The notes under the pieces: generated by a model
Told to the model about the DNA's origin: nothing
What the model saw: only the letters and a program-made list of their open reading frames with translations
Database searches by the model: none
Translations under genes and position numbers: made by a program
From: a virus
Virus record (IMG/VR): IMGVR_UViG_3300020048_003650
Location: 1 to 64,000 of that record
Reading direction: 5' to 3' (one strand)
DNA: 64,000 nucleotides
Shown: positions 442 through 6,728 of the stretch, piece by piece
Numbering within the stretch: the first letter of the stretch is position 1
Layout of the letters: each line of letters starts with the position of its first letter

Positions 442-531
442 GGAGCGTGGGCCGGATGGTAAGGCAGCGGATTGCTAATCCGTAGAGTGTAGTAATACGC
501 TCACAGGGTTCGACTCCCTGACGCTCCGCCA
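442..531 (+). tRNA. tRNA-Ser(GCT)
   Basis: GGAGCGT/ACGCTCC acceptor, gcgga-TTGCTAA-tccgt anticodon arm, long variable arm, TTCGACT loop, CCA. Confidence 0.95.
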
Positions 532-599
532 TATTAAAGCACATTTCAGCTGGTGAGAGCCTAGTCCAAAGACTTGTTCGGGGTAGTGTGTTTCAATAT
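531..599 (+). ncRNA. closing-helix RNA element 1 (unknown family)
   Basis: atattaaagcacatt pairs with agtgtgtttcaatat (two G-U pairs, one mismatch); starts at the tRNA-Ser terminal A. Confidence 0.55.
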
Positions 600-1135: not shown

Positions 1136-1210
1136 ACGGTCAGAAATCACTTGACAATAAATCAGAGGTATGGTATAATACACCTATACACTGACGAATC
1201 GAGATAAAAT

Positions 1211-1435
1211 ATGAAGGCAAAAATCATCGTTAATCAACGTGAAAACGACCGGTATTTCAAACAAAAATTGCCCACATGGCGCAATGGCTTCTGTGAAATA
1301 GTTCGCAGTGTCACGATTGAACCGGACCCGTATGACGTTTATTTGGACGGTGAGTTTGGATACATCACAGTCTATGGTCGTAAAATTTATGTCACTAGGT
1401 CTGGTATTGAATCTGAATTTGAAATTCGTGGTTAA
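1211..1435 (+). CDS. hypothetical protein
   Basis: behind the promoter module at 1151-1210. Confidence 0.7.
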   Translation: MKAKIIVNQRENDRYFKQKLPTWRNGFCEIVRSVTIEPDPYDVYLDGEFGYITVYGRKIYVTRSGIESEFEIRG

Positions 1436-1539
1436 AAAGATTGACAATAAATCAGAGATATGGTATAAATACACCATACATTGAGAAAACGAGGGAATAT
1501 TATGAAAGAATTTACATACACCTACTTGCGTGATCTAAC

Positions 1540-2471: not shown

Positions 2472-2726
2472 ATGCGTAAACCTAAAATCTCCACCACTGT
2501 GCCAAAATACGGCGATATCATTAAAGCCTATGATTTCCCTGGCACCCTGGAATGTTACATGGTTGGTCGGGTTGTCAATACAGATGATGATTACATTTAC
2601 TGTACCATGATCAAGGAAGTTTTCGGTGGTCAGATGGCATCCGATCCGGATGACAGTTTTCGCACCCCAAAACAAGGTTACAGTTTTGGCGATGACAGTT
2701 TCCAACGAATCGTAGTAATCGCTTGA
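2472..2726 (+). CDS. hypothetical protein (paralog of 53052-53324)
   Basis: ATG after promoter module 2412-2471; GDIIKAYDF...CY.VG.V matches NDVIRSYDF...CF.EG.V. Confidence 0.7.
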   Translation: MRKPKISTTVPKYGDIIKAYDFPGTLECYMVGRVVNTDDDYIYCTMIKEVFGGQMASDPDDSFRTPKQGYSFGDDSFQRIVVIA

Positions 2727-2783
2727 CAATAAATCAGAAGTCGGTTATAATAGAAGTTCAGTAAGTAAAACGCTCTTTAAAAA
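2723..2783 (+). promoter_or_regulatory. sigma70 promoter followed by boxA-like antitermination site
   Basis: TTGACA...TATAAT, then CGCTCTTTAAAAA at 2771-2783 (rrn boxA is TGCTCTTTAACA); no ORF follows. Confidence 0.7.
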
Positions 2784-2787
2784 TTTA

Positions 2788-3025
2788 CGTAATATTTTAG
2801 TACATTAGGTTACTAGATCCGATAGGATACACTGGCATAAACTGTCTCGACGGAGGTGGGTGCAGAGTGTCGTCATGAACGATGGAAACTTCTCCGAGGA
2901 GATGAAACGGTAGTCACGTCGGGCAGTCTAGAGGGTAATGTGGTAAGCGAACAGTCGTTGGACGACAACGTGGTAACCCGCCGAATGGGGGATTCGCAGA
3001 CATCCTAGTGTATTAAAATATTGCG
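2788..3025 (+). ncRNA. closing-helix RNA element 2 (~240 nt, multi-branched)
   Basis: 22-bp helix 2788-2809/3004-3025 with three G-U pairs; several GC-rich internal hairpins. Confidence 0.7.
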
Positions 3026-3221
3026 TTCTTTAATCTAATCAATTGAGCAGTGCGAAATGCACACGGGTTATCTTTACTAACCGCCTAGTGGCGTACCCCT
3101 GCCGAAGGAAATCTGGTCGTGGCAGTGATATTGATCGTGATTATCGAACGCAATACTAGCAGTACGTTGACTCCATTACGCTGGGAAGCGTAGGCCTGCC
3201 GTGAGGCACTCTACCGGAGTC

Positions 3222-3311
3222 ATCTTTATTGAGCGCACTTCAGACAGTAGAATACTTCAGAAGGAGTACAGCCCCTGTTCCAAAGTCCGGGATAGTGTGT
3301 TCAATAAAGAT
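3222..3311 (+). ncRNA. closing-helix RNA element 3
   Basis: atctttattgagcgcact/agtgtgttcaataaagat, 18 bp with two G-U pairs. Confidence 0.6.
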
Positions 3312-3376
3312 AGTGTAACACGGTCGAGGCGCACCCGATTCTTTGTAAAGGTAGCAGACACACCGGAAAGACGGTG

Positions 3377-3474
3377 ACCATATTCGAGTACATTAAAATC
3401 TTAACGGATCAGGCTTGGTAAGCCGAGACCTATACTCAGTAAGTCTAAACAACCATAGTGTACTCGGATATGGT
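3377..3474 (+). ncRNA. closing-helix RNA element 4
   Basis: accatattcgagtacatta/tagtgtactcggatatggt, 19 bp with two G-U pairs. Confidence 0.6.
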
Positions 3475-3475
3475 A

Positions 3476-3631
3476 GTGTTGTTATAAGTGAGTGTTATAA
3501 GGTATCGTGTTAGGACGCTAACACTATACGGGTCAAAGCAGCCGGCGACTGATCCTGATATAACTGCATCGGCTTTGACTGGGAAGCACCCAACGTCTAA
3601 ATTTGCACATAACACTCACTTATGATAATAC
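3476..3631 (+). ncRNA. long-helix RNA element 5 (different arm sequence)
   Basis: 23-bp helix 3476-3498/3609-3631 with three G-U pairs; internal stems gtgttag/ctaacac and gtcaaagc/gctttgac. Confidence 0.6.
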
Positions 3632-3634
3632 AAT

Positions 3635-3710
3635 GGTGACTATAGTGTAGTGGTTCGCACCCGATTCTGTGGAAATCGTAGTCTCGGATCGTAACCGAGT
3701 AGTTACCCCA
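3635..3710 (+). tRNA. tRNA-His(GTG)
   Basis: cgatt-CTGTGGA-aatcg anticodon arm, extended acceptor stem, CCA; atypical T-loop ATCGTAA. Confidence 0.85.
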
Positions 3711-3751
3711 TAAAACTTGACAATAAATCAGAGACATGATACAATGTATTT

Positions 3752-3824
3752 GTCTCTGTAGTGTAAAAGATAACATACGACTCTGACGATGATTGTGATC
3801 TGAGTGCAATTCTCAGCAGAGATT
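3752..3824 (+). pseudogene. degenerate tRNA-like element
   Basis: 7-bp acceptor gtctctg/cagagat and T-arm ctgag-TGCAATT-ctcag are intact; anticodon stem broken, no CCA; own promoter at 3717. Confidence 0.55.
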
Positions 3825-6654: not shown

Positions 6655-6728
6655 CATATTGAAACGTATTCAAGTAGATCGATCAACGCAGAATTTTACC
6701 GAATTTTGTCAGAGTACGTTTCAATATG
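6655..6728 (+). ncRNA. closing-helix RNA element 6
   Basis: catattgaaacgtattc/gagtacgtttcaatatg, 17 bp; fills the tRNA-Lys to tRNA-Met spacer. Confidence 0.55.

What the first reader, a model, noticed from the sequence alone, without database searches (positions are those of the whole stretch)
2723..3710. About 1 kb RNA-only operon headed by an rRNA-style boxA
Seen: a consensus promoter is followed by CGCTCTTTAAAAA and then ~900 nt with no credible ORF, tiled almost end to end by folded units and ending in tRNA-His. Known: boxA (TGCTCTTTAACA) recruits NusB/NusE to protect untranslated transcripts from Rho. Inference: the phage borrows host antitermination to express a long ncRNA array, which argues the units are functional.
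Basis: partly seen in the sequence, partly recalled or inferred. Interest (0 to 1): 0.7.

Follow-up and report, generated by a model that had tools for sequence, protein, structure and literature searches.

The report
Phage RNA operon with boxA leader
An uncultured large freshwater-type phage makes a roughly 960-base transcript with no protein gene, consisting of folded RNAs and ending in a histidine tRNA. The transcript starts with the short "boxA" signal that bacteria use on their ribosomal RNA operons, and every related phage found keeps that signal.

Summary
A perfect sigma-70 promoter (2723-2751) is followed by GCTCTTTAAAAA (2772-2783). This is the only perfect match to the published boxA consensus GYTCTTTAANA in the whole 104.5-kb record. 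About 850 nt follow with no conserved ORF, tiled by helix-closed RNA units and ending in a tRNA-His.

I found 14 distinct homologous leaders on 16 IMG/VR contigs. Ten positions of the 12-mer are invariant. The only two variable positions are the Y and N of the consensus. The flanking bases vary, and so does the distance from the promoter. The motif always lies 3-4 nt before the 5' strand of a 20-23-bp closing helix. Internal units never carry it.

The units are real RNAs: helix mismatches are G-U (40) rather than A-C (5), and a three-way-junction element shows compensatory changes at 7 of 13 pairs.

Best reading: a stable-RNA operon built like an rRNA operon, in which boxA recruits host Nus factors. 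Nus binding and Rho protection are untested, and the host is unknown. The second boxA-like site (3025) is chance.

This scan has noted boxA-led phage tRNA or RNA arrays on other DNA. I found none in the searchable literature.

The parts
2723..2751 (+). Sigma-70 consensus promoter (-35 TTGACA 2723-2728, 17-nt spacer, -10 TATAAT 2746-2751). The inferred start is near 2758.
   Evidence: 12 of 12 match. The same extended promoter occurs at 1151, 1441, 2412, 3717 and 6379 and in at least 118 IMG/VR stretches. The transcription start is inferred, not mapped.
2758..2786 (+). Unstructured 5' leader that holds the boxA motif.
   Evidence: MFE is 0 kcal/mol. Mean pairing probability of the boxA bases is 0.23, against 0.58 for the transcript as a whole.
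2772..2783 (+). boxA-like 12-mer GCTCTTTAAAAA, a perfect match to GYTCTTTAANA.
   Evidence: unique in the record. One search gives the consensus (PMC5725501); 14 distinct leaders, 10 of 12 positions invariant, and only the Y and N positions vary.
2787..3026 (+). Unit 1: a 23-bp closing helix (2787-2809 with 3004-3026) around a 194-nt multi-helix cargo.
   Evidence: I6. All 3 arm mismatches are G-U on the + strand. The ortholog in L139 is 88% identical; of 77 predicted pairs none is broken, 2 are compensatory and 5 are wobble changes.
3019..3155 (+). Extended hairpin (arms 3019-3035 and 3139-3155) carrying an 84-nt insert (3045-3128). It contains the second boxA-like GTTCTTTAA (3025-3033) inside its stem.
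   Evidence: I25. The insert is 97.6% identical to L135 3735-3818. Relatives have a short hairpin ATTGTGT-loop-ACACAAT here and no boxA-like word. The insert alone folds no better than shuffles.
3168..3222 (+). Three-way-junction element 'J': P1 3168-3174 with 3216-3222; P2 3177-3182 with 3187-3192, capped by a GGGA (GNRA) loop.
   Evidence: Aligned in 6 contigs. 93.6% of cells are paired, against 27-45% when the partners are slid. 7 of 13 pairs show changes on both sides. z = -2.6.
3222..3311 (+). Unit 3: an 18-bp closing helix (3222-3239 with 3294-3311) with a 54-nt cargo.
   Evidence: I21. z = -5.6. The cargo is 90% identical to the promoter-proximal unit of L139, where it sits in a different closing helix.
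3377..3474 (+). Unit 4: a 19-bp closing helix (3377-3395 with 3456-3474) with a 60-nt cargo.
   Evidence: I19. Both arm mismatches are U-G on the + strand (read). z = -6.3.
3476..3631 (+). Unit 5: a 23-bp closing helix (3476-3498 with 3609-3631) with a 110-nt cargo, directly upstream of the tRNA.
   Evidence: I7. z = -5.4. L139, L025 and L131 have a long-stem unit with a different cargo in the same place before tRNA-His.
3635..3710 (+). tRNA-His (GUG) with encoded G-1, C73 and CCA, and a deviant T-loop AUCGUAA (3673-3679).
   Evidence: ARAGORN. Not reported by Rfam. The sequence was read. In L139, L095, L127, L131 and L143 the array is likewise followed by a tRNA-His; other tRNA genes and, in L127 and L143, a small ORF can lie between.
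3717..3745 (+). Next promoter (11 of 12 match), which marks the end of the unit. No terminator lies in between.

Best explanation
This is a phage stable-RNA operon built on the plan of a bacterial rRNA operon. A strong early-type sigma-70 promoter drives a transcript of about 960 nt with no protein gene. About 14 nt into the RNA lies an unpaired boxA (GCTCTTTAAAAA). I infer that it is bound by host NusB/NusE, so that RNA polymerase is converted into an rrn-type Nus complex. Only 3-4 nt further on begins the 5' strand of a 23-bp leader-trailer-like helix that closes the first folded RNA. The tethered boxA would then do two things. It would keep polymerase processive on untranslated RNA. It would also hold the 5' strand near the RNA exit channel until the 3' strand, about 200 nt later, emerges; this is the model proposed for pre-16S rRNA. 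The following units are also closed by 18-23-bp helices. These helices are the likely cutting or protecting sites (RNase III-size duplexes), and RNase P would release the terminal tRNA-His. Shown here: the promoter match, the motif and its selective conservation, RNA-level structure with covariation, and the modular architecture. Inferred: Nus binding, antitermination or chaperoning, RNase III processing, and what the cargo RNAs do.
For: The motif is a perfect match to GYTCTTTAANA, the consensus derived for functional boxA (PMC5725501), and it is unique in the 104.5-kb record. There are 14 distinct homologous leaders on 16 contigs. The 12-mer has a mean major-allele frequency of 0.96 with 10 invariant positions, and the two variable positions are exactly the Y and N of the consensus. 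By comparison, the 14 nt upstream score 0.61 and the 3-nt spacer 0.67. Two leaders read GCTCTTTAACAA. The distance from the -10 to the motif varies from 14 to 29 nt, but the distance from the motif to the helix is always 3-4 nt. In 1.08 Mb of promoter-bearing phage loci, only 4 of about 60 GYTCTTTAA words lie within 70 nt of a promoter, and all 4 are this leader. Internal helix-closed units never carry the motif, and neither do mRNA or tRNA-only promoters in the window. The motif is predicted to be unpaired while the next 22 nt are paired with p = 0.83-1.0. The RNA level of the structure is supported in three ways: 263 Watson-Crick, 40 G-U and only 5 A-C pairs in the leader helices; unit 1 has no broken pair at 12% divergence; and the J element has 7 of 13 pairs with compensatory changes. 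Literature: boxA alone is necessary and sufficient for rrnTAC formation, and boxA tethering is proposed to promote leader-trailer helix formation (PMC10250234).
Against: There is no experiment, and no expression data could be obtained. The host is unknown, so identity with the host's own rrn boxA could not be checked. No boxB hairpin or boxC is present; in Enterobacteriaceae boxC lies 18-19 nt after boxA, whereas here the helix starts after 3-4 nt. The transcript has G > C, with only 1 of 89 windows clearly C-rich, and it is highly structured, so Rho may be little threat. tRNA-only units of the same phage manage without boxA. The leaders are homologous, so part of the conservation is shared descent. 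A/U-rich single-stranded RNA next to a stem is also what an RNase E site looks like. The nearest cultured relative, Melnitz, lacks the feature.
Confidence: 0.55

Rival explanations
1. The conserved 12-mer is a 5'-end processing or stability signal, for example an RNase E-type cut in A/U-rich single-stranded RNA just before a stem. It would define the mature 5' end of the first unit, and its likeness to boxA would be coincidental.
For: The motif is A/U-rich, unpaired and lies directly before a stable helix. It sits at a fixed 3-4 nt from the helix, as a ruler-type processing site would. Other units must be processed in some way too.
Against: Internal units, which need processing just as much, never carry it. 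RNase E sites are loosely defined and would not hold 10 of 12 positions invariant. The two variable positions coincide with the two degenerate positions of the boxA consensus; by my arithmetic this has a chance of about 1 in 66.
Confidence: 0.15
2. The motif is conserved only because the whole leader is young and shared by descent, or because it acts at the DNA level as an operator or part of a second promoter. In either case it has no role in the RNA.
For: All the leaders are homologous. The closing-helix arm next to it is also nearly invariant. The arm contains the palindrome CAATATTG and a -10-like TAATAT/CAATAT.
Against: The flanks of the motif have diverged (0.61 and 0.67 against 0.96). 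The promoter spacers differ and the leader length varies by 15 nt, so there has been time for change. No MotA-type activator was found, although that search had no positive control. The motif is strand-specific and always lies on the transcribed strand, 8-23 nt after the inferred start.
Confidence: 0.15
3. The stretch is protein-coding or decayed coding DNA, and the folds are incidental.
For: ORFs of 50 and 58 aa with GTG starts exist.
Against: The ORFs are not conserved: there is a 1-nt indel inside the 50-aa ORF, and the units under the 58-aa ORF are rearranged in L139. Folding has z = -5.7 on the + strand only. Covariation and the excess of G-U over A-C pairs support RNA structure. G+C is 45-49%, against about 30-40% in the flanks.
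Confidence: 0.02

Closest known systems
Bacterial rrn operon leader and spacer (boxB-boxA-boxC, rrnTAC of NusA/B/E/G, SuhB and S4, and leader-trailer helices cut by RNase III)
   Same: A strong promoter is followed by a promoter-proximal boxA matching GYTCTTTAANA on an untranslated, highly structured transcript. The 5' strand of a long-range helix of more than 17 bp that brackets the cargo RNA comes next. A tRNA is co-transcribed at the end.
   Different: The cargo is not rRNA but several unrelated, swappable small RNAs. No boxB or boxC is present. The helix starts 3-4 nt after boxA, not 18-19 nt. The helix sequence is phage-specific: the leader-plus-arm pattern gave only chance hits in 185,579 bacterial genomes. 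Function is untested.
Lambda nutL/nutR (boxA plus boxB with the phage N protein)
   Same: A phage transcript carrying a boxA that recruits host Nus factors.
   Different: There is no boxB hairpin; the leader has an MFE of 0. No N-like protein was identified. The lambda boxA is a weaker variant ahead of protein-coding early operons, not of an RNA array.
suhB 5'-UTR boxA and other non-rRNA boxA sites (Baniulyte et al. 2017, PMC5725501)
   Same: A perfect GYTCTTTAANA outside rRNA. That paper states that its survey did not consider non-coding RNAs.
   Different: Those sites repress or regulate mRNAs of cellular genes. This one heads a phage non-coding operon.
Phage T4 tRNA cluster with stable RNAs C and D (species 1 and 2). 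This comparison rests on my own knowledge and was not checked here.
   Same: A T4-like phage co-transcribes tRNAs with small stable RNAs of unknown function and relies on host RNases for processing.
   Different: T4 has 2 such RNAs and no described boxA or conserved closing helix. There is no sequence similarity.
GOLLD / ROOL and other large phage-associated ncRNAs next to tRNA genes
   Same: Structured, ORF-free RNA in a phage tRNA neighbourhood.
   Different: There is no Rfam match at E <= 10 in the window or E <= 0.1 in relatives. The region is an array of separate helix-closed units, not one large fold.

Membership tests
boxA (NusB/NusE-binding RNA element) | Sequence matches the functional consensus GYTCTTTAANA | tested here: met
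   GCTCTTTAAAA at 2772-2782 is the only perfect match in the record. The consensus comes from PMC5725501.
boxA (NusB/NusE-binding RNA element) | Lies on the transcribed strand, early in an untranslated transcript | tested here: met
   It lies 20 nt after a 12-of-12 promoter -10, and no ORF follows. The transcription start is inferred, not mapped.
boxA (NusB/NusE-binding RNA element) | Selectively conserved in orthologous leaders | tested here: met
   In 14 distinct leaders on 16 contigs, 10 of 12 positions are invariant and variation occurs only at Y and N, while the flanks vary.
boxA (NusB/NusE-binding RNA element) | Single-stranded in the nascent RNA | tested here: met
   Prediction only: pairing probability is 0.15-0.62, always below that of the adjacent arm (0.83-1.0). 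The leader MFE is 0.
boxA (NusB/NusE-binding RNA element) | Binds NusB-NusE and changes termination or elongation | not testable with these tools
   This needs EMSA or ITC, ChIP, and reporter assays.
boxA (NusB/NusE-binding RNA element) | Same word as the host's own rrn boxA | not testable with these tools
   The host is unknown. The only hint is a beta-type tmRNA in relative L135.
rrn-type leader-trailer helix | A long-range helix of more than 17 bp that brackets the cargo, with its 5' strand just downstream of boxA | tested here: met
   23 bp, 2787-2809 with 3004-3026. The same holds in all the leaders, with cargo of 31-251 nt.
rrn-type leader-trailer helix | Pairing maintained by covariation at the RNA level | tested here: met
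   40 G-U against 5 A-C pairs. Compensatory G-C to A-U and wobble changes occur between the window and L139. The triplet differs between paralogous helices (tta/taa, cga/tcg).
rrn-type leader-trailer helix | Cut by RNase III | not testable with these tools
   No phage RNase III gene was found in 5 records, so a host enzyme would be needed.
Lambda-type nut site | boxB hairpin next to boxA | tested here: not met
   The leader 2758-2786 has no predicted structure, and no conserved hairpin appears in the leader alignment.
tRNA-His | GUG anticodon, G-1, C73 and CCA | tested here: met
   ARAGORN, with the sequence read.
tRNA-His | Canonical T-loop (UUCRANY) and a match to the general tRNA model | tested here: not met
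   The T-loop is AUCGUAA. Rfam RF00005 gives no hit at E <= 10. Orthologs in L139, L131, L143, L095 and L127 are canonical, at 60-64 bits.
Any Rfam family (GOLLD, ROOL, RNase P, 6S, ribozymes and others) | Covariance-model match | tested here: not met
   Only tRNAs matched. In relatives only tRNAs and tmRNA matched.

The most novel reading that the evidence does not exclude
boxA plus the sequence-conserved closing helix may form a phage 'RNA cassette' platform that copies pre-rRNA biogenesis. The Nus complex would anchor the 5' strand, the cargo would loop out, and the helix would form and be cut. Unrelated cargo RNAs, some with tRNA-like T-arms, could then be swapped between helix frames by recombination and produced in quantity early in infection, for instance as decoys or substitutes against host tRNA- or RNA-targeting defences.
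Probability: 0.3. Interest if true: 0.8.

Novelty: new variant of a known kind. Interest (0 to 1): 0.62.

Why it matters
boxA and Nus-factor modification of RNA polymerase is textbook for rRNA operons and lambda. It has only recently been extended to a few cellular mRNAs, and the survey that did so excluded non-coding RNAs. A boxA kept under selection at the head of phage non-coding RNA operons, welded to a leader-trailer-type helix, would have two consequences. First, it would show that large phages use the host's rRNA transcription and folding machinery for their own stable RNAs. Second, it would give a compact natural system of about 250 nt in place of 1.5 kb of 16S rRNA, in which to test the proposed chaperone role of boxA tethering in long-range helix formation. 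It also marks a set of at least 8 covarying phage RNAs with no Rfam family as expressed, selected products worth characterising.

Tried and rejected
- blastn of the region against 50,697 phage records found no match in near or distant mode.
- The neighbouring 252-aa protein has no relatives in IMG/VR.
- Rfam at the gathering score and at E <= 10 found only tRNAs.
- The genome-contig scan with the boxA-tail plus helix-arm pattern returned 10 scattered chance hits in unrelated bacteria, so there is no host copy of the leader.
- Melnitz, the nearest cultured phage, has only one close match, and it is antisense inside a CDS, so it is a chance hit.
- The searches for phage-encoded NusB and RNase III were negative.
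- The MotA search was negative but had no positive control, so it is uninformative.
- The second boxA-like site at 3025 is rejected. It is paired within helix 3019-3035/3139-3155 and is absent from all relatives.
- A third hairpin (GCCU/AGGC) in the J element is rejected as unproven, because the substitutions in L025 and L095 do not keep it (read).
- One loose regex survey of helix arms was uninformative.
- One alignment script mis-filtered its input and was redone.

Full report
CONTEXT. The window is the first 64 kb of a 104.5-kb IMG/VR virus record that CheckV rates as 30% complete. A related contig is 264.6 kb at 74% completeness, so these appear to be phages of roughly 350 kb. At the protein level the nearest cultured phages are the Methylophilales phage Melnitz (49.5% identity on a 682-aa cyclase) and the Pelagibacter phage HTVC008M. 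The first 8 kb form a tRNA island with 13 tRNA genes and many copies of one extended consensus promoter.

OBSERVATION.
- The promoter at 2723-2751 matches the sigma-70 consensus at 12 of 12 positions.
- Twenty bases after the -10 lies GCTCTTTAAAAA (2772-2783). Its 9-nt core is the only exact copy in the window.
- The 11-mer is the only perfect match to GYTCTTTAANA on either strand of the whole record. Baniulyte et al. derived that word as the functional boxA consensus (PMC5725501).
- Between 2760 and 3635 the longest ORFs are 58 and 50 aa with GTG starts. Neither survives in the closest relative. A 1-nt indel falls inside the 50-aa ORF, and the units under the 58-aa ORF are rearranged there.
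- G+C rises to 45-49% here.
- The sense strand folds with z = -5.7, against -2.6 for the antisense strand.
- Five closing helices of 17-23 bp tile the stretch, and single units have z of -5.4 to -6.3.
- Two stretches, 3036-3138 and 3312-3376, fold no better than shuffles.
- The array ends in a tRNA-His with GUG, an encoded G-1, C73 and CCA. Its T-loop is AUCGUAA, and Rfam's tRNA model does not report it.
- The next promoter starts 7 nt later, and no terminator-like site lies in between.

RELATIVES. Sequence searches of cultured phages found nothing. Pattern scans of IMG/VR with the promoter, with the 3' helix arm and with the 5' arm brought in 16 contigs that carry homologous arrays. L139 is the closest: unit 1 is 88% identical over 241 nt. 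In L139, L095, L127, L131 and L143 the array is likewise followed by a tRNA-His. Other tRNA genes can lie between the two, and in L127 and L143 a small ORF does as well. None of the units matches an Rfam family in any contig.

IS THE BOXA WORD SELECTED? I collected 14 distinct leader segments.
- The 12-mer reads G[CT]TCTTTAA[AC]AA in all of them. Ten positions are invariant, and the two that vary are exactly the Y and N of the published consensus.
- Two leaders read GCTCTTTAACAA.
- The mean major-allele frequency is 0.96 in the 12-mer, 0.61 in the 14 nt upstream and 0.67 in the 3-nt spacer downstream.
- The promoters differ in spacer sequence, and the distance from the -10 to the motif ranges from 14 to 29 nt. 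The distance from the motif to the first helix strand is always 3-4 nt.
- In 1.08 Mb of promoter-bearing phage loci, about 60 GYTCTTTAA words occur, but only four lie within 70 nt of a promoter, and all four are this leader.
- Helix-closed units inside arrays or behind tRNAs never carry the word. Nor do the mRNA promoters or the tRNA-only promoter at 3717. The word therefore belongs to the 5' end of transcripts that open with a helix-closed unit, not to the helix itself.
- It is predicted to be unpaired, while the following arm is paired with probability 0.83-1.0.

The second boxA-like word, GTTCTTTAA at 3025, is different. It is base-paired in the helix 3019-3035/3139-3155. In the relatives a short hairpin without the word takes its place. 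I treat it as chance.

ARE THE UNITS REAL RNAS? Yes.
- In 14 leader helices there are 263 Watson-Crick, 40 G-U and only 5 A-C appositions. This asymmetry fits RNA of the + strand and does not fit a DNA-level inverted repeat.
- Unit 1 compared with its L139 ortholog at 12% divergence keeps all 77 predicted pairs. Two changes are compensatory and five are wobble changes; the remaining substitutions fall in loops.
- The element at 3168-3222 is present in six contigs and is a three-way junction with a GNRA-capped arm. 93.6% of its cells are paired, against 27-45% when the partners are slid by 1-3 columns. 7 of 13 pairs changed on both sides.
- Cargo and frame are separable. The cargo of window unit 3 sits in the promoter-proximal helix of L139, while the helix frame of unit 3 holds a different cargo there. 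The 84-nt insert at 3045-3128 is 97.6% identical to a segment between two tRNA genes of L135.

MECHANISM. The published properties of boxA are as follows. It is necessary and sufficient to assemble the rrn antitermination complex. In the model of Wahl and co-workers, tested by Warner et al., boxA bound to NusB holds the leader strand at the RNA exit channel. The rRNA loops out, so that the trailer can pair with the leader as soon as it emerges. A leader-trailer helix of more than 17 bp is essential (PMC10250234). The phage leader has the same three parts in miniature: promoter, boxA and the 5' strand of a 20-23-bp long-range helix. I therefore read the locus as a stable-RNA operon that recruits host Nus factors. 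The fixed spacing of boxA to the helix makes the anchoring or chaperone role at least as likely as Rho protection. The transcript has G > C with almost no C-rich window and is heavily folded, so it offers Rho little to load on. The helices are the length of RNase III substrates. No phage RNase III or NusB gene was found in five records, so host enzymes would have to act. All of this paragraph beyond the sequence facts is inference.

WEAKNESSES.
- No expression data could be obtained.
- The host is unknown, apart from a hint from a beta-type tmRNA in L135. The key comparison with the host's own rrn boxA is therefore missing.
- No boxB or boxC is present, and the spacing differs from rrn.
- The leaders share descent.
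- In L127, L143 and L134 the same leader is followed, after the first units, by a small conserved ORF, so the family is not strictly RNA-only.
- Melnitz lacks the feature.
- The leader-plus-arm pattern is absent from 185,579 bacterial genomes apart from chance hits. The helix is therefore a phage invention, not a copied host stem.

PRIOR KNOWLEDGE. Full-text searches for boxA together with phage tRNA arrays or non-coding RNA found no description of such a leader. Within this scan, earlier AI notes report boxA-led phage tRNA or RNA arrays in other lineages: freshwater T4-like phages, a cyanophage, an actinophage and a planctomycete phage. They also record one case where a boxA resemblance was judged coincidental. 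I did not test those notes. They agree with this reading but are not independent evidence.

VERDICT. The interpretation passes its comparative test but remains functionally unproven. I class it as a new variant of a known kind: rrn or nut-type boxA use, here on a phage cassette array of unknown structured RNAs.

Noticed in passing
window 3673-3679; also L095, L127 and L159: The T-loop of the window's tRNA-His is AUCGUAA instead of UUCRANY (A at position 54 and U at 58, the usual T54-A58 pair swapped). The same loop (GGGAUCGUAACCC) occurs in a tRNA-Glu-like gene of L095, L127 and L159. L025's tRNA-His has another deviant loop, GUCGGUA. Because the loop recurs in different genes and contigs, it looks selected rather than decayed.
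   Followed up: partly
window 3222-3311 compared with L139 12514-12603 and 12020-12100: Cargo RNAs are swapped between closing-helix frames. The window's unit-3 cargo is the promoter-proximal cargo in L139, while the orthologous helix frame in L139 holds an unrelated cargo. The conserved arms may act as recombination points.
   Followed up: partly
window 3045-3128; L135 3735-3818: An 84-nt segment is 97.6% identical to a stretch between tRNA-Met and tRNA-Ser of a contig that is otherwise diverged. In the window it is inserted into the loop of a hairpin that is short in the relatives.
   Followed up: no
window 3019-3026 with 3148-3155; all relatives: The last 7-8 nt of a unit's 3' arm (ATTGYGT) can also pair with a downstream ACRCAAT. 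This small hairpin is conserved in L139, L025, L095, L127 and L131, and it excludes the base of the closing helix. It may be an alternative pairing that forms after processing.
   Followed up: no
window 3752-3824: A tRNA-like gene (Rfam 37.2 bits, not called by ARAGORN) lies a few bases downstream of the -10 of the promoter at 3717-3745, so the transcript would have almost no leader.
   Followed up: no
L025 about 1200-1470 (- strand); L122, L125, L134: A conserved RNA-like element of about 280 nt follows the first unit in four contigs. It has no Rfam match at E <= 0.1. I did not see it in the window's unit.
   Followed up: no
L127, L143 and L134 arrays: A small conserved ORF (roughly 45 aa, beginning M..Y.V.YQTE., with a hydrophobic tail) lies inside the boxA-led arrays of some relatives, before the tRNAs. 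The window's unit has none.
   Followed up: no
window 3424-3457 compared with 30-63: The unit-4 cargo shares 74% identity over 34 nt with the stretch of the phage tmRNA just upstream of its tag reading frame (..TAAACAACCATA). The unit also repeats the leader word TCAGTAAGT. This may be chance.
   Followed up: no
window 531-599 and 6655-6728: Two more units with the same closing-helix consensus sit directly behind tRNA-Ser and tRNA-Lys, outside the flagged operon and without boxA.
   Followed up: partly
Most of them are otherwise unrelated to the RNA array.
   Followed up: no
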